Assembly (NCBI GenBank): GCA_040876925.1
Contig: JBBDOS010000003.1
Location: 61,207-125,206 of the forward strand
DNA from: Candidatus Saccharimonadales bacterium
GTDB lineage: Bacteria; Patescibacteriota; Saccharimonadia; QS-5-54-17
Direction of reading: 5' to 3'
DNA length: 64,000 nucleotides
Shown here: in pieces, positions 24,127 to 34,696 of the stretch
Layout: every line of letters begins with the position of its first letter
Numbering within the stretch: position 1 is the first letter of the stretch
Made by a program: the position numbers and the translations under genes
Notes under the pieces: model-generated
What the model was told of the DNA's origin: nothing
Database searches by the model: none
Seen by the model: the letters and a program-made list of their open reading frames with translations, nothing else

Positions 24127-24624
24127 ATGGGACAAGAAATATTAATACTAGATAATATCCGTAGCGCCTATAATGTTGGCAGCATTATTAGAAGTAGCGC
24201 AGCTTTTGGGATAACTCAGATATATTGTGTCGGCATCACGCCTTACCCAGCTATAGACAATGACCCTAGATTACCCCACGTAGTCAAGCAGGCCGATAAA
24301 CGGATAGCTAAAACAGCTCTAGGAGCCCAAGCACATATTAGCTTCAAGCATTCAGACTCTATAGAACCAGTTATCAAACAACTCAAAAGTGATGGCATGT
24401 CTATTTACGCCCTTGAGCAACATCCAGAGGCTAGAGATCTAAAAACGTTTAAACCCAAACAACCTTTTGCTTTGATATTAGGAACCGAAGTAGATGGTAT
24501 ATCTAATCAAATCTTAAGCTTATGTGATGAAATTATTGAGATTAAACATTCTGAAAATAAAGAATCACTCAACGTTGCTTCAGCTGCAGCTATCGCCTTA
24601 TACAGCCTAAGCGAAGCTAAATAG
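24127..24624 (+). CDS. SpoU/TrmH-family RNA 2'-O-methyltransferase (TrmL-like size)
   Basis: 165 aa. SPOUT motifs (..NVGSIIRSSAAFG.., C-terminal ..NVASAAAIALY..). Confidence 0.75.
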   Translation: MGQEILILDNIRSAYNVGSIIRSSAAFGITQIYCVGITPYPAIDNDPRLPHVVKQADKRIAKTALGAQAHISFKHSDSIEPVIKQLKSDGMSIYALEQHPEARDLKTFKPKQPFALILGTEVDGISNQILSLCDEIIEIKHSENKESLNVASAAAIALYSLSEAK

Positions 24625-24852
24625 AACCAAGATCAATACAGCTAAGACTATCTGCTCAAAAACTGTTTCATAACTAATCTCACCTTTAGTTTTAGCATAT
24701 TCATAAATCATATACCCCGCAAACAAACCTATAGCCGCAGTCGCAGCTATTAATGTCCCTGGCCAAGGAATATATAGCCAAGTAGCAAAAAGCAGCAGCG
24801 GAGTGATAATAGATAGCGCCCAACCTATATATAGCTTATTATCGCCTTCCAT
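24607..24852 (-). CDS. Small membrane protein (2-3 TM)
   Basis: 81 aa, highly hydrophobic. One-nucleotide overlap with the upstream CAP-domain gene. Convergent 18-nt overlap with the SpoU gene. Confidence 0.5.
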   Translation of the reverse strand: MEGDNKLYIGWALSIITPLLLFATWLYIPWPGTLIAATAAIGLFAGYMIYEYAKTKGEISYETVFEQIVLAVLILVLFSFA

Positions 24853-31597: not shown

Positions 31598-34500
31598 ATG
31601 GAAAACGCCATCAGTGAGTGGGCAAAAAAACAAAAACGTACAATAAGCAATGCAATTTATACAATAGCGGGTTTCTCGCTGGTATTTTCTAGTACATTTG
31701 GTATGGCGATGCCTAGTATGGTTCAAGCAAGCAGCCATAATGTAGAAACAACTAATATTACATTCACTCAAAGTGAGCTTGATAACAATTGGGTAACTGA
31801 CAGAAAACACCCGTCAGGAGACGTAAACTCTGTTTCTTTTGACGGACGTAACAATGTTGCAAGAATTGGAGTATTAGCAGCGGAACAACACTCTAACTCT
31901 TTTTATCATTACGAAGGTATTAAGAGGGTTGGAGATTTTGGAAACAGTGTTCAGGTAGATTTGTATGTACCGAGTGACTGGGAAGAAGCGGAACCTATTA
32001 ATGTTGGACTCTGGTCGAGCGATAACCCTCTTTCAGCCTACCCATTAATCGTATACCGCAATAATGAAAATATAGATGCTGGTTTCTACACATGGGATGT
32101 TGTATATGATGAGGATATAGAGAAATGGGTTGGCGTCTATAATCTAAGTGCTGTTAATGTCAACTACGATGGCTGGAATACACTTAGCATATCCCTGGAT
32201 GAAGATAGCAACACAGCCAACTATGCGATTAACGAAGAAGCAACAGGCAGCATATACGCTTCTGGTGATAATATTGGCGAGATATTCATGAACCACTACA
32301 ATGACGGTGTTCGTGATTACGATGCATACTGGCACGGAATGTCATTTAGCAGAACCATCCCAACTGGCGATGTAGAAATTAACGCTTACTTCTGTGAAGA
32401 CGGAACGAGCATCTCTTGGGGATCAAATGGCCCAGACGGAATCACACCTGATGAATGCGTGCCGGCAGAAGGCTTGAACTTCTCAAATGTGGAAGAAACC
32501 GACAAAGAACCTGGCGACCCTTCTTCGCCATGGTCGAATGAGCCAATCGCACAAACAGTATCCACAAATGCAAATGGCGTAGCAGTATTAGAAGATCTCT
32601 CAGCAGAGCACCGACATGGAATCATTTCAGAAGATTATCAAAATGAAATGATTTTCTATGCTTGTGAAGATGACAGTAGCTCAGGTGGTAATCCGCAAGA
32701 TGAGTACGAATATGCATTTCCTGTAAAGAATCAGACGAAGCAATGTGTCGCTTATTTTGTAGACAGCCAAGTTCCAGCCATGTCTGACATAACAATGTTC
32801 GTGAATGGCACAGAGTCTGAACTTGCAAAAAGCGGTGACGAAATACGAATAGAAGCGACAGTTGTGGACGAAAGTGGCGTAAATAGAGTGCAGATATGGG
32901 TCAGGAACTTCCCTTACACTGGTGAGCAGCTTACAAGTGGAGAAATGACTAATGTGTCCGGCAGCTTGTACGAGTTTGTCTTTACGCTACCAGAGACATA
33001 TGAAAGTGGTGGCGATATAAACGAAGAGTTTGAAGGCAATTACTTTAACTTCCGTCCGACCGATTCAATCGGTAACAACTACATAGGCAGCCGCGAGAAC
33101 TTTACAATCGACAACACCGCACCGAATATTACAAATGTATCTCTGATACCGGATCTCATAAATCCAGACAGAGAAAACCCAACTCTGAAAGCTAATATTG
33201 AAGATATTGGTAGTGGCGTAGAAAAAGTGCAGTACAAAGTATATGCATCTGACGGATCAACCGCAGCTGGCTATAAAGACATAGCGCACGATCCAAATAC
33301 AAACTCTGTAGATGATGAGATAGATATTGCAGGTTTAGAAGATGGTGAATATAGCTTAGGTGTTAGAGCGTTTGACAATGCAGGCAACAAGAAAAATGTA
33401 GGAAATGCGGCAAGCAGTATACAAATTCCGTTTACAGTAGATACTAGTTCACCTAGAATCACAAACGCCTCGCTTTCATTAGATCTCATAAACTCAAACG
33501 AAGACAATCCAACCCTAACAGCAGATATCGACGGCACAGGTAGTAACGTTGCGGATGTGCAATACAGAATACATAAATCACCATTTGAGAAAATCGACGG
33601 TTTTGGTTGGGAGCCAGTAGATGCTGAGGATGGCGACTACGATAGTATCCTTGAGTCAATTTCAAGCGAGATTGATGTAGCTGGACTTGGTGATGGCGAA
33701 TATCTTGTGCGAGTAAGAGCTTTTGACGAAGCAGGCAACAAGAAAAGTGGTGTTGATGTAGAGTTTACTGTCGACAACACCGCACCAGTAGCCGAAATCA
33801 CCCAGCCAAACGATGAACAAATTGTCTTCGGAGAAGTTGAGCTTGTTGGTGAAGTAACTGACGAGAACTCAAAGAACTCTCACTTTGAAATTCAAGATTC
33901 AGAAGGAAACCGGGTAGATTCTGACACGCTTAAAAATGGTTCAAAAAACCACGAGTACACCTGGGATACATCTGGCCTCGATGACGGTTTCTACACTATC
34001 TACTTTGAAGCAAGAGACCTAGCGGGCAATAAAGATGGCAGTCGCAATAACCCAGGCAAATCTGTCTATGTCATTACAGTTACTGTAGATAATACTGCGC
34101 CAGATGTAGATGCTGGTACTGATCAGAACATCATAAACTCGCTAGAGTCACAGCTATCAGGTACAGCAGATGATACGACAACATCCATAGCAAGTGTATT
34201 ATGGACTCAACTAAGCGGTCCTGGTGTAACCAACTTCTTTGGTGATGAAGACACCCTAGATCCATCTATAGAAGTTGACGCATTTGGCACATACACCTAC
34301 GAATTAACTGCTACTGATGAGACTGGTAACGAAGTTAGTGATACTGTTGTCGTAACCTTTGAAGAAGATGACAGTGAGGACGATACTATAAACACCAACA
34401 CCGGAGAACCTCTAACACCAGGAGGAGGCGAAGTATTCTTTACAGCTTTAGACACTGGCGCTACTGAGGATAATGAAGAAGATGCTACAGAAGAGGATGA

Positions 34501-34696
34501 AGGCTCTGACGAAGGTGAAGACGAGAATGGAAATGGAAACGGCAACGAGAATGAGAACGGTGAAGAAGTTCTAGCCGAAGAAGATGATCGTTCATTCTCA
34601 CTATGGTGGTGGCTACTCCCTATAGCTATCCTATCCTTCGCTATCCTGTTTGCTCGCAGACGCAAGGATGATGAGTCTGGGTTAATGGACAACTAA
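31598..34696 (+). CDS. Large cell-surface protein with tandem Ig-like repeat modules, acidic G/N/E-rich linker and C-terminal TM anchor
   Basis: 1032 aa. Signal peptide. At least 4 repeats starting FT(I/V)DNTAP with recurring RAFD(N/E)AGNKK. C-terminus ..SLWWWLLPIAILSFAILFARRRK... AGGAG RBS. Confidence 0.75.
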   Translation: MENAISEWAKKQKRTISNAIYTIAGFSLVFSSTFGMAMPSMVQASSHNVETTNITFTQSELDNNWVTDRKHPSGDVNSVSFDGRNNVARIGVLAAEQHSNSFYHYEGIKRVGDFGNSVQVDLYVPSDWEEAEPINVGLWSSDNPLSAYPLIVYRNNENIDAGFYTWDVVYDEDIEKWVGVYNLSAVNVNYDGWNTLSISLDEDSNTANYAINEEATGSIYASGDNIGEIFMNHYNDGVRDYDAYWHGMSFSRTIPTGDVEINAYFCEDGTSISWGSNGPDGITPDECVPAEGLNFSNVEETDKEPGDPSSPWSNEPIAQTVSTNANGVAVLEDLSAEHRHGIISEDYQNEMIFYACEDDSSSGGNPQDEYEYAFPVKNQTKQCVAYFVDSQVPAMSDITMFVNGTESELAKSGDEIRIEATVVDESGVNRVQIWVRNFPYTGEQLTSGEMTNVSGSLYEFVFTLPETYESGGDINEEFEGNYFNFRPTDSIGNNYIGSRENFTIDNTAPNITNVSLIPDLINPDRENPTLKANIEDIGSGVEKVQYKVYASDGSTAAGYKDIAHDPNTNSVDDEIDIAGLEDGEYSLGVRAFDNAGNKKNVGNAASSIQIPFTVDTSSPRITNASLSLDLINSNEDNPTLTADIDGTGSNVADVQYRIHKSPFEKIDGFGWEPVDAEDGDYDSILESISSEIDVAGLGDGEYLVRVRAFDEAGNKKSGVDVEFTVDNTAPVAEITQPNDEQIVFGEVELVGEVTDENSKNSHFEIQDSEGNRVDSDTLKNGSKNHEYTWDTSGLDDGFYTIYFEARDLAGNKDGSRNNPGKSVYVITVTVDNTAPDVDAGTDQNIINSLESQLSGTADDTTTSIASVLWTQLSGPGVTNFFGDEDTLDPSIEVDAFGTYTYELTATDETGNEVSDTVVVTFEEDDSEDDTINTNTGEPLTPGGGEVFFTALDTGATEDNEEDATEEDEGSDEGEDENGNGNGNENENGEEVLAEEDDRSFSLWWWLLPIAILSFAILFARRRKDDESGLMDN

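What the first reader, a model, noticed from the sequence alone, without database searches (positions are those of the whole stretch)
24607..34696. 10-kb secretome/surface cluster: CAP-domain protein, Zn-ribbon-bPH protein, 2 MarP-like proteases, membrane nuclease, giant Ig-repeat adhesin
Almost every gene in this stretch carries a signal peptide or TM anchor, and it contains the compositional island at 29181-29780. The combination of membrane thermonuclease, surface proteases, CAP domain and a repeat-rich surface protein looks like a module for interacting with or foraging from another cell or external DNA. This fits an epibiotic or host-associated lifestyle, but that is inference.
Basis: inference. 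Interest (0 to 1): 0.55.

Follow-up and report, generated by a model that had tools for sequence, protein, structure and literature searches.

The report
Envelope-protein gene neighbourhood in a Saccharibacterium
This 10-kb stretch of a Saccharimonadales (TM7) genome holds ordinary, recognisable cell-envelope genes (two MarP proteases, a CAP-domain protein, a membrane nuclease and a surface protein); it is inherited with the chromosome rather than being one machine, and has two fast-changing spots.

Summary
All domain calls were confirmed, and 9 of the 10 genes encode proteins with membrane segments. The source is a Candidatus Saccharimonadales MAG. The stretch has at least four transcription units, not one operon. 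Its backbone has ordinary host composition and keeps its gene order in the two closest relatives (MarP 84% and 71% identical). That order is lost in relatives at or below 42% identity, except for a ZnR-bPH/MarP pairing. Nothing links the proteases and the CAP protein to foraging; their characterised homologues act on the cell's own wall. The nuclease (catalytic residues intact, predicted outward-facing) and the surface protein do fit scavenging and attachment. Two spots vary. First, the surface protein keeps its signal peptide and its C-terminal 'LWWWLxPIAIL…RRR' anchor, but its whole passenger region is replaced in a relative. Second, the 'compositional island' is a real 158-aa gene for a protein without membrane segments. 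It is an orphan with GC3 of 0.51, against 0.29-0.38 for its neighbours. It is absent from one relative and is bracketed by repeated 15-18-nt motifs. Both structure predictions failed. Interest is low to moderate.

The parts
24607..24852 (-). 81-aa small integral membrane protein (about 3 TM). Its start overlaps the CAP gene's stop by 1 nt, which suggests translational coupling.
   Evidence: ORF. KD segments at 7-28 and 59-81. 76% and 61% identical in L083 and L084 at the same position. No Pfam or NCBIfam family.
24852..25736 (-). CAP/SCP (YkwD-like) domain protein. It is tethered by an N-terminal TM and a C-terminal TM hairpin, and the CAP domain is predicted to face outward.
   Evidence: PF00188 75 bits. 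TIGR02909 YkwD 105 bits (below the 171 cut-off) and DalA NF052539 60 bits. Best PDB match 4IFA, E 8e-14. TM segments at 24-47, 224-256 and 267-294.
25779..26558 (-). Protein with a Zn-ribbon, a linker, a 2-TM hairpin and a bPH_2 domain (259 aa from the ATG). It is the first gene of the minus-strand unit ZnR-bPH > CAP > 81 aa.
   Evidence: PF03703 and PF13240. TM at 113-147. The start MNYC matches the orthologues. An orthologue sits directly upstream of MarP in L135 and L136.
26650..27825 (+). MarP-family membrane-anchored serine protease (4-TM CvpA-like domain plus chymotrypsin-fold domain).
   Evidence: NF033740 272 bits, above the 250 cut-off. Colicin_V and Trypsin_2. Best PDB match is Rv3671c, 3K6Y, E 1.7e-26. 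H230, D259, S337 and C209 are invariant and C390 nearly invariant in 25 homologues. A 100%-identical protein is named 'MarP family serine protease [Ca. Saccharimonadales bacterium]'.
27887..28975 (+). Tandem MarP-like paralogue. It keeps the 4 TM and the catalytic triad, but its N-terminal part has diverged and it evolves faster.
   Evidence: NF033740 166 bits, below the 250 cut-off, matching only the protease part. Trypsin_2 89 bits. It was a row of alignment A1, whose invariant columns include the triad. It is 49% identical to its L084 orthologue, against 71% for MarP1.
29002..29094 (-).
   Evidence: ORF. 77% identical in L084 and L085 and 87% in L091 at the same position. KD score 2.95.
29180..29236 (-). 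Long conserved hairpin just downstream of the island gene. It is probably a terminator or transcript stabiliser, although no T-run follows it.
   Evidence: The 101-nt stretch 29160-29260 that contains it folds at MFE -37.7 kcal/mol, z -5.2. It is unique in the window and conserved in L091.
29256..29732 (-). The 'compositional island': a 158-aa orphan protein gene with no TM or signal peptide. The N-terminal half is fast-evolving. The C-terminal half is conserved and carries a C-x4-C-x10-C-x2-H…C motif.
   Evidence: GC3 0.51 against 0.29-0.38 in neighbours. The only homologue among 1.8 billion representatives is P0122 at 53% identity. P0122 lies in the same slot of a related population. Codon-position differences are 19/6/28 in the C-half and 42/32/43 in the N-half. 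Weak DUF5763 hits in both homologues. No Rfam family. Absent from L084.
29239..30035 (.). Three copies of the motif AGA[AT]A[CT]AAGTTTGTA: 29239-29256 (+), 29829-29846 (-) and 30018-30035 (+). They bracket the island gene (18-nt inverted repeat, 16 of 18 matching) and a 171-bp AT-rich, promoter-like segment (perfect 15-nt inverted repeat).
   Evidence: The 15-nt pair is one of only 3 exact inverted-repeat pairs of at least 15 nt within 1 kb in the 64-kb window, and only 6 of 100 block shuffles give any. Promoter-like hexamers lie inside the segment. Their function is untested.
30128..30757 (-). 209-aa 4-TM protein with an acidic C-terminal tail and no known family. It lies downstream of the nuclease gene on the same strand.
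   Evidence: KD segments. 64% identical in L084 with an invariant LWHMACAHWYIGGFALPLAIAII stretch. Only sub-threshold family hits.
30833..31474 (-). Membrane-anchored staphylococcal-type nuclease. Two N-terminal TM flank a K/R-rich loop, so the catalytic domain is predicted to face outward.
   Evidence: PF00565 64 bits. Alignment to S. aureus nuclease shows the DGDT, R, D-x-P-E and R catalytic positions present. Two Cys are conserved with the L084 orthologue. TM at 1-25 and 34-61.
31598..34696 (+). 1032-aa surface protein, in order:
- signal peptide, aa 1 to about 46;
- family-less head, aa about 47-388 (nt 31736-32761);
- about five Ig-like/PKD domains, aa 389-920;
- acidic linker;
- TM anchor LWWWLLPIAIL…RRRK, aa 999-1020 (nt 34592-34657).
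   Evidence: Big_13, K319L-like PKD, Big_3_3, Big_7 and Big_3_2. OmpL47-type barrel. The N-terminal 401 aa have no Pfam hit at E<=1. The motif D[NT][TS][AS]P recurs about every 105-111 aa. Only aa 5-47 and 984-1031 align with the 768-aa protein at the same place in L084.
34735..34764 (.). GC-rich hairpin between the convergent surface-protein and dnaE genes. It is probably a bidirectional terminator and marks the right edge of the neighbourhood.
   Evidence: Terminator-like site with 13 pairs. DnaE at 34797-38534 is 84% identical in L084.

Best explanation
This is a lineage-specific neighbourhood of cell-envelope genes on the chromosome of a Candidatus Saccharimonadales (TM7, Patescibacteria) bacterium. 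It sits between core genes: nusA, rnhB, rplS and trmH on one side and dnaE on the other. It is not one operon or one machine.

Transcription units:
- Minus strand: ZnR-bPH > CAP > 81-aa protein.
- Plus strand: MarP1 > MarP2.
- Minus strand: SNase > 4-TM protein. The orphan gene and the 30-aa gene follow, each probably with its own promoter.
- Plus strand: the surface protein.

How the parts most likely work (all inferred from homology and topology):
- The two MarP-type proteases are held in the membrane by four helices. Their disulfide-stabilised protease domains face outward and process exported wall proteins, as mycobacterial MarP does with RipA.
- The CAP/YkwD-like domain is tethered at the wall.
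- The ZnR-bPH membrane protein is functionally tied to MarP, because their adjacency persists in a relative at 42% identity.
- The nuclease faces outward and degrades external nucleic acid for salvage.
- The surface protein stands on a C-terminal helix and an acidic linker. It carries an Ig-domain stalk and an unclassified head that binds a partner surface.

The backbone is vertically inherited. Two slots turn over. The passenger part of the surface protein is exchanged between conserved export and anchor ends. A small-gene slot here holds a compositionally foreign orphan gene.
For: - Identity and family membership.
- Membrane segments and topology.
- Gene order and per-gene identity in the close relatives L083 and L084/L085: tm81 61-76%, CAP 64-81%, ZnR-bPH 62-79%, MarP1 71-84%, MarP2 49%, 30-aa gene 77%, 4-TM protein 64%, SNase 46%, DnaE 84%.
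- Host-typical GC3 in every gene except the orphan.
- Loss of the arrangement in Saccharibacteria at about 40% MarP identity and in 80 Actinomycetota and other MarP loci, and in 43 SNase loci.
- ZnR-bPH next to MarP in L135 and L136.
- Passenger replacement in the surface protein.
- The orphan gene is absent from L084 and present, much diverged, in L091.
- Literature: MarP/RipA (PMC7064781, PMC6628586), the CAP-type lipoprotein DalA binding peptidoglycan at the divisome (PMC10470522), an external micrococcal nuclease proposed for nucleotide scavenging in Saccharibacteria (PMC6031116), and adhesins essential for epibiotic growth (PMC10633639).
Against: - No expression, localisation or activity data exist.
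- Topology rests on a hydropathy scan and the positive-inside rule, not on SignalP or DeepTMHMM.
- Only three related populations could be compared, and one contig ends inside MarP1.
- A run of 8 membrane proteins among 9 genes is mildly non-random (p about 0.03), so some shared selection for clustering cannot be excluded.
- The functions of the 81-aa, 30-aa, 209-aa and 158-aa proteins are unknown.
- MarP substrates in a bacterium without a mycobacterial wall are unknown.
Confidence: 0.6

Rival explanations
1. One reading: the ten genes form one functional module for attaching to another cell and foraging from it or from external DNA. In this view the proteases and the CAP protein act on the host surface, the nuclease feeds on released nucleic acid, and the adhesin docks the cell.
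For: - Outward-facing domains are predicted for five proteins.
- Nuclease catalytic residues are intact.
- The surface protein is hypervariable, as expected for a host- or phage-facing molecule.
- MarP2 and SNase evolve faster than the rest (49% and 46% against 61-71%).
- The clustering of membrane proteins is mildly non-random.
- Saccharibacteria are epibionts that need adhesins (PMC10633639) and lack nucleotide synthesis (PMC6031116).
Against: - There are at least four separate transcription units in both orientations.
- The genes do not co-occur near MarP or SNase outside the closest relatives.
- Characterised MarP and bacterial CAP homologues act on the cell's own wall (PMC7064781, PMC10470522).
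- The Zn-ribbon and bPH domains and the orphan protein are probably cytoplasmic.
Confidence: 0.2
2. The whole 10 kb is a horizontally acquired genomic island that carries a surface and secretome cargo.
For: It has one compositionally odd segment and a gene content that differs from distant relatives.
Against: - GC3 is host-typical (0.29-0.36) for all genes except the 158-aa orphan.
- Gene order is the same between the same core genes in relatives with 84% DnaE identity.
- No adjacent tRNA was found; the only tRNA is at 6853-6939.
- None of the nine main cluster proteins matches a recombinase family; the 30-aa peptide was not scanned.
- No flanking direct repeats stand out from short chance-level matches.
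Confidence: 0.04
3. The small-gene slot is a contingency locus: an invertible or excisable DNA switch. The 15-18-nt motif copies would be recombination sites. They would flip the 171-bp promoter segment or the orphan gene, or delete both, giving phase-variable expression.
For: - Three motif copies lie in inverted and direct orientation exactly at the gene and promoter-segment borders.
- The perfect 15-nt inverted repeat is rare in the window and in shuffles.
- Promoter-like hexamers lie inside the segment.
- The gene is absent from L084.
- The L091 contig ends at the third copy.
Against: - No recombinase family matches the cluster proteins scanned.
- All held assemblies (window, L001, L090, L091) have the same orientation.
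- Chance expectation for such repeats is not negligible (about 0.07 per window in shuffles, 3 observed).
- The motif could equally be a regulator-binding site.
Confidence: 0.1
4. The GC-rich island is a structured non-coding RNA and not a protein gene.
For: The sense strand folds better than shuffles (z -4.35). The flanking hairpins are conserved.
Against: - No Rfam family at E<=1.
- The 158-codon frame is open in both diverged homologues, and differences in the C-half peak at the third position (19/6/28).
- The consensus fold with L091 has only 8 compensatory pairs, against several dozen pairs that break in L091.
Confidence: 0.03

Closest known systems
MarP (Rv3671c) of Mycobacterium tuberculosis, NCBIfam NF033740
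   Same: The architecture matches: a 4-TM CvpA-like anchor plus a chymotrypsin-fold domain. The His-Asp-Ser triad and the Cys pair are conserved. It passes the equivalog cut-off, and the best solved structures are 3K6Y, 3K6Z and 3LT3.
   Different: It is only 25-33% identical to actinobacterial members. Here it is duplicated in tandem, and the second copy scores below the family cut-off. It sits next to a ZnR-bPH gene instead of the neighbours seen at the other MarP loci held. A role in acid resistance or RipA activation is untested, and no RipA-type substrate was looked for.
Bacterial CAP/SCP proteins: the YkwD family (TIGR02909), PDB 4IFA, and DalA of Rhodobacter (NF052539)
   Same: The CAP domain scores 75 bits in Pfam and aligns over about 107 residues with 4IFA. 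It is extracytoplasmic like those proteins.
   Different: It scores below the YkwD and DalA cut-offs. It is anchored by an N-terminal helix and a C-terminal helix hairpin, not by a lipid or by free secretion. Peptidoglycan binding is not testable here.
Staphylococcal (micrococcal) nuclease, and the external micrococcal nuclease noted in 'Ca. Teamsevenus rhizospherense' (PMC6031116)
   Same: SNase fold and catalytic residues. The proposed role is scavenging nucleic acid in a lineage that cannot make nucleotides.
   Different: It is anchored by two N-terminal helices rather than secreted. It is below the NucI and EcnA equivalog cut-offs. In this clade it is paired with a conserved family-less 4-TM protein.
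Bacterial Ig-like (Big/PKD) repeat surface adhesins, and the essential surface proteins of Southlakia epibionticum (PMC10633639)
   Same: It has a signal peptide, tandem Ig-like/PKD domains and a distal head, and it is located on the surface.
   Different: It has no LPXTG or other recognised sorting signal. It ends in an unclassified helix anchor, LWWWLxPIAIL…RRR. The whole passenger region is non-homologous in the nearest comparable genome, where it looks beta-helix-like from its repeat pattern and has no Pfam hit.

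Membership tests
MarP family serine protease (NF033740) | Whole-protein score at or above the curated equivalog cut-off (250 bits) | tested here: met
   MarP1 (26650-27825) scores 272.1 bits. MarP2 (27887-28975) scores 165.9 bits, so the feature is not met for the second copy.
MarP family serine protease (NF033740) | N-terminal four-helix CvpA/Colicin_V-type membrane domain | tested here: met
   MarP1 matches PF02674 at E 1.7e-9 and has KD segments. MarP2 has four hydrophobic segments but no PF02674 hit, so it is inconclusive for the second copy.
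MarP family serine protease (NF033740) | Chymotrypsin-fold domain with a His-Asp-Ser triad and the stabilising Cys pair (the role of the pair in Rv3671c is from my own knowledge of the structure paper) | tested here: met
   H230, D259, S337 and C209 are invariant and C390 is in at least 90% of 25 aligned homologues, which include MarP2. C209 aligns with the Cys of Rv3671c in 3K6Y.
MarP family serine protease (NF033740) | Function: acid-stress resistance through cleavage of a peptidoglycan hydrolase (RipA) | not testable with these tools
   Known only for mycobacteria (PMC7064781, PMC6628586). No substrate search was done here.
CAP/SCP superfamily (PF00188), YkwD subfamily | CAP domain above the Pfam gathering score | tested here: met
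   75 bits against a cut-off of 21.1.
CAP/SCP superfamily (PF00188), YkwD subfamily | YkwD (TIGR02909) or DalA (NF052539) curated cut-off | tested here: not met
   104.9 bits against 171, and 59.6 bits against 200. It is a CAP-domain protein but not a member of either named subfamily.
Staphylococcal nuclease (PF00565) | SNase domain above the gathering score, with the Ca-binding and catalytic residues (D21, R35, D40, E43, R87 in S. aureus numbering, from my own knowledge) | tested here: met
   63.8 bits against 21. The alignment to 3DHQ shows DGDT, R-L-I-G-I-D-A-P-E and Y-D-R at the matching positions.
Staphylococcal nuclease (PF00565) | Extracellular location | tested here: inconclusive
   Two N-terminal hydrophobic segments flank a loop with 5 K/R, and two Cys are conserved. 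This predicts an outward-facing domain. No dedicated predictor or experiment was available.
bPH_2 membrane proteins (PF03703, YdbS/YdbT-like) | bPH_2 domain preceded by a two-helix membrane hairpin | tested here: met
   59.4 bits against 22. The hydrophobic stretch 113-147 lies directly before the domain at 160-251.
Cell-wall-anchored Ig-repeat adhesins (sortase substrates) | Tandem bacterial Ig-like/PKD domains above the gathering scores | tested here: met
   Big_13 54.2 bits, K319L-like PKD 46.8, Big_3_3 36.2, Big_7 35.1 and Big_3_2 27.3, all above their cut-offs.
Cell-wall-anchored Ig-repeat adhesins (sortase substrates) | C-terminal LPXTG-type (or other catalogued) sorting signal | tested here: not met
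   The C-terminus reads …DDRSFSLWWWLLPIAILSFAILFARRRKDDESGLMDN, with no LPXTG. No NCBIfam sorting-domain hit at E<=0.01. The anchor occurs once in the window.
Horizontally acquired genomic island | Foreign composition across the block, an insertion next to a tRNA or with a recombinase, and absence from close relatives | tested here: not met
   GC3 is host-like except in one 158-aa gene. There is no tRNA nearby and no recombinase family among the proteins scanned. The block keeps its gene order in L083 and L084.
Invertible promoter / DNA inversion switch (inverton) | Inverted repeats flanking a short promoter-bearing segment | tested here: met
   A perfect 15-nt inverted repeat at 29832-29846 and 30018-30032 flanks 171 bp that contain promoter-like hexamers.
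Invertible promoter / DNA inversion switch (inverton) | Both orientations present in a population, and a cognate recombinase | not testable with these tools
   All held assemblies share one orientation. Reads could not be mapped, and no recombinase family matches the cluster proteins scanned.

The most novel reading that the evidence does not exclude
In this reading the locus holds two contingency slots of a host-dependent CPR bacterium. In the first, a surface protein's entire ligand-binding passenger is swapped by recombination between an invariant signal peptide and an invariant, so far uncatalogued C-terminal anchor (LWWWLxPIAIL…RRR), and this sets host or phage specificity. In the second, an orphan gene is bracketed by inverted repeats. 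It has GC-rich third codon positions, a hypervariable N-terminal half and a zinc-motif C-terminal half, and its promoter segment can invert or excise. That would make it a phase-variable gene of foreign origin, possibly an effector or an immunity gene.
Probability: 0.15. Interest if true: 0.6.

Novelty: new member of a known kind. Interest (0 to 1): 0.3.

Why it matters
As it stands, this is a useful but ordinary annotation of envelope genes in an uncultured Saccharimonadales lineage.

It matters somewhat because Saccharibacteria live attached to other bacteria, and the molecules at that interface are mostly unknown. The variable surface protein with fixed export and anchor ends is a concrete candidate for a host-range determinant.

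The ZnR-bPH/MarP pairing gives a testable partner for a protease family that is studied in tuberculosis.

The orphan gene with foreign third-position composition marks a spot where this reduced genome still takes up or exchanges genes.

Tried and rejected
- RNA explanation for the GC island. Rfam found nothing at the gathering threshold or at E<=1. The consensus fold with L091 gave 8 compensatory pairs against several dozen pairs broken in L091. Rejected in favour of a protein gene.
- Structure of the orphan protein. AlphaFold2 with 3 sequences gave pLDDT 44. For the surface-protein head (aa 40-400, single sequence) it gave pLDDT 33. Neither model was usable, so no fold searches were run.
- Homologues of the C-terminal anchor. 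The word-indexed protein search with a 45-aa alignment returned nothing, not even the query protein itself. That search was wasted.
- Relatives of the 4-TM protein in JGI metagenomes: none. A SNase scan gave 43 loci, none with other cluster genes.
It showed the family's spread but gave little on Saccharibacteria gene order.
- Orphan gene in viral contigs: none. PHROGs and PADLOC gave no hits for the orphan, for the L084 slot gene or for the extra L084 gene. A PDB profile search gave only a non-significant Vgb-lyase blade match, E 1.6.
- Whole-block horizontal transfer: rejected on composition and gene order.
- Literature searches for Saccharibacteria with MarP, for DUF5763, and for hypervariable surface loci in Saccharibacteria found nothing relevant.

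Full report
**What is there.** Between 24607 and 34696 the window carries ten genes.
- Minus strand: an 81-aa membrane protein (24607-24852), a CAP-domain protein (24852-25736) and a Zn-ribbon/bPH_2 protein (25779-26558).
- Plus strand: two trypsin-like proteases (26650-27825 and 27887-28975).
- Minus strand: a 30-aa membrane micro-protein (29002-29094), a 158-aa gene in the GC-rich patch (29256-29732), a 209-aa four-helix protein (30128-30757) and a staphylococcal-type nuclease (30833-31474).
- Plus strand: a 1032-aa protein with Ig-like repeats (31598-34696).

A 100%-identical protease in the public collection is named 'MarP family serine protease [Candidatus Saccharimonadales bacterium]'. 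The source is therefore a TM7/Patescibacteria metagenome-assembled genome. Two Logan assemblies contain the same sequence at 100% identity. The flanking genes are core genes: nusA, rnhB, rplS and a SpoU methylase on the left and dnaE on the right.

**Is the observation more than chance?** A hydropathy scan finds membrane-type segments in 8 of the 9 ORFs of at least 70 aa here, against 13 of 46 elsewhere in the window. Permuting the flags gives such a run in about 3% of trials.

The positive-inside rule and conserved cysteine pairs place five domains outside: the CAP domain, both protease domains, the nuclease domain and the bulk of the large protein. The Zn-ribbon and bPH domains probably face the cytoplasm. 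The 158-aa protein has no hydrophobic segment at all.

The GC patch at 29181-29780 has GC 0.493, which is z = 2.9. Two other places in the window reach the same level. Its third codon positions are the real anomaly: GC3 is 0.51 against 0.29-0.38 in every neighbouring gene.

**Family membership.**
- The first protease passes the curated MarP equivalog cut-off (272 against 250 bits). It has the CvpA-type anchor, and its best solved relatives are the Rv3671c structures 3K6Y, 3K6Z and 3LT3.
- In an alignment of 25 homologues the His, Asp and Ser of the triad and one Cys are invariant. The C-terminal Cys is nearly invariant.
- The second protease keeps these residues and four hydrophobic segments. 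It scores only 166 bits, so it is a MarP-like paralogue rather than a certified member.
- The CAP protein lies above the Pfam threshold but below the YkwD and DalA cut-offs. Its best solved relative is 4IFA.
- The nuclease keeps the catalytic and calcium-binding positions of S. aureus nuclease.
- The large protein has about five Ig-like/PKD domains between residues 389 and 920, and a 340-residue N-terminal head with no family match at E<=1. After these come an acidic linker and a single C-terminal helix followed by RRRK. There is no LPXTG.

**Organisation.** Strand changes and intergenic gaps define at least four transcription units.
- ZnR-bPH > CAP > 81-aa protein. The last two overlap by one base.
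- MarP1 > MarP2.
- Nuclease > four-helix protein. The 158-aa gene follows after a 395-bp AT-rich gap that contains promoter-like hexamers, and it ends at a stable, conserved hairpin. The 30-aa gene comes next and has its own promoter-like site.
- The surface protein, which ends at a hairpin shared with the convergent dnaE gene.

This is not the layout of a single operon.

**Comparison with relatives.**
- L083 (GCA_040879705.1, MarP 84% identical) has the same order from clpB through nusA, rnhB, rplS, a hypothetical gene, the SpoU gene, the 81-aa gene, CAP and ZnR-bPH to MarP1, where its contig ends.
- L084 and L085 (GCA_050486185.1, MarP 71%, DnaE 84%) keep the same backbone through to dnaE.
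- Per-gene identity to L084 is 61% for the 81-aa protein, 64% for CAP, 62% for ZnR-bPH, 71% for MarP1, 49% for MarP2, 77% for the 30-aa protein, 64% for the four-helix protein and 46% for the nuclease.
- At about 40% MarP identity the arrangement is gone (L086-L089 and L137).
- None of the 80 MarP loci from species genomes, mostly Actinomycetota, has a CAP, bPH, SNase or four-helix homologue within 10 kb.
- None of the 43 SNase loci from metagenomes has the other cluster genes.
- There is one exception. In L135 and L136 (MarP 42% identical) an orthologous ZnR-bPH gene lies directly upstream of MarP on the same strand. This suggests a real functional tie between those two genes.

**Two variable slots.** The first is the surface protein. 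The protein at the same place in L084 has 768 residues and shares only two parts with the window protein. One is the signal-peptide region (aa 5-47, 36% identity). The other is the C-terminal anchor (aa 984-1031, 60% identity; LWWWL[LI]PIAIL…RRR…LMD). Its passenger has repetitive beta-helix-like sequence, matches no Pfam family, and does not align with the Ig-repeat passenger. L084 also has an extra small, secreted-looking gene before dnaE.

The second slot is the small-gene position.
- The 158-aa gene is absent from L084, where an unrelated 189-aa gene on the other strand fills the space.
- A search of 1.8 billion representative proteins found one true homologue, P0122 at 53% identity. It comes from a related population in the sibling sample and lies in the same slot, where the 30-aa gene is 87% and the end of MarP2 is 67% identical.
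- Both copies keep GC-rich third positions (0.51 and 0.58).
- The C-terminal halves, which carry a C-x4-C-x10-C-x2-H motif and a weak DUF5763 match, differ mostly at third positions (19/6/28).
- The N-terminal halves differ about equally at all three positions (42/32/43).
- The 5' leader hairpin and the 3' hairpin are nearly invariant.

This is therefore a real protein gene of foreign composition with a rapidly changing N-terminal half. Its function is unknown. PHROGs, PADLOC, the PDB and viral contigs gave nothing.

**A lead, not a result.** Three copies of a 15-18-nt motif lie at 29239-29256 (+), 29829-29846 (-) and 30018-30035 (+). The first two form an inverted pair around the orphan gene. 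The last two form a perfect 15-nt inverted pair around a 171-bp AT-rich segment with promoter-like hexamers. The first and third are direct repeats. Only three exact inverted pairs of that length occur within 1 kb anywhere in the window, and 6 of 100 shuffles give any. This matches the anatomy of an inversion or excision switch. However, all the assemblies held have one orientation, and none of the cluster proteins scanned matches a recombinase family.

**Interpretation.** The backbone is a vertically inherited, lineage-specific neighbourhood of envelope genes.

By analogy with characterised homologues, the MarP pair, the CAP protein and the ZnR-bPH protein most plausibly serve the cell's own wall. 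MarP activates the wall hydrolase RipA in mycobacteria (PMC7064781, PMC6628586). The CAP-type lipoprotein DalA binds peptidoglycan at the divisome (PMC10470522).

The outward-facing nuclease fits the nucleotide scavenging already proposed for Saccharibacteria (PMC6031116). The variable surface protein fits the adhesins found essential for epibiotic growth (PMC10633639).

All mechanistic steps are inferred; nothing here measures expression, location or activity.

**Verdict.** This is a new member of known kinds, of low to moderate interest (0.3). Two points merit follow-up: the passenger exchange between fixed export and anchor ends, and the repeat-bracketed orphan gene.

Noticed in passing
window 48885-49647 (core about 49000-49460, + strand): This is a 760-bp ORF-free, GC-rich gap between two minus-strand metabolic genes. 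The plus strand folds far better than shuffles (MFE -196 against -149 +/- 6.6 kcal/mol, z -7.1, 0 of 100 shuffles as good). The minus strand gives only z -1.55. No Rfam family matches at E<=1. It is a candidate unannotated structured RNA of about 450 nt.
   Followed up: partly
window 29002-29094 (-): A 30-aa single-helix micro-protein (MNKNKMRKRDVVMIVVVILFVLATLTPLFI) is 77-87% conserved at the same position in two related populations. That is better than most of its larger neighbours.
   Followed up: partly
L135 1720-3653; L136 889-2789: In a Saccharibacteria relative at 42% MarP identity, the Zn-ribbon/bPH_2 gene lies directly upstream of MarP on the same strand. In the window the two genes are divergent. 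The pairing outlives the rest of the cluster.
   Followed up: partly
L086 1952-4497; L087 797-3342; L137 1569-4487: In other Saccharibacteria, MarP sits near a Crp-type regulator (cNMP_binding + HTH_Crp_2) and a P-type ATPase. L086 and L087 also carry a heliorhodopsin gene about 7 kb away.
   Followed up: no
L084 15012-15491 (+): An extra 159-aa gene lies between the surface protein and dnaE. It has an N-terminal hydrophobic segment, several Cys and raised GC (0.48), and no family match. It is absent from the window, so it marks a third variable point of the locus.
   Followed up: no
window 22762-23020 and 43621-44483: These are the only two other exact inverted-repeat pairs of at least 15 nt within 1 kb in the window. 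One is CAGCAGCTACTAAAG with 244 nt between arm starts. The other is a 16-mer, GATGAGGCCATAGCTA, with 847 nt between arm starts. Both lie inside or across coding regions.
   Followed up: no
window 23484-24077 (-): A 197-aa acidic protein with no Pfam, NCBIfam or PHROG match lies between rplS and the SpoU methylase gene. It is 71% conserved in L083. A 158-aa gene at the same place in L084 gave no tblastn match.
   Followed up: no
window 24607-24624: The SpoU methylase gene (+) and the 81-aa membrane protein gene (-) converge and overlap by 18 nt at their 3' ends.
   Followed up: no
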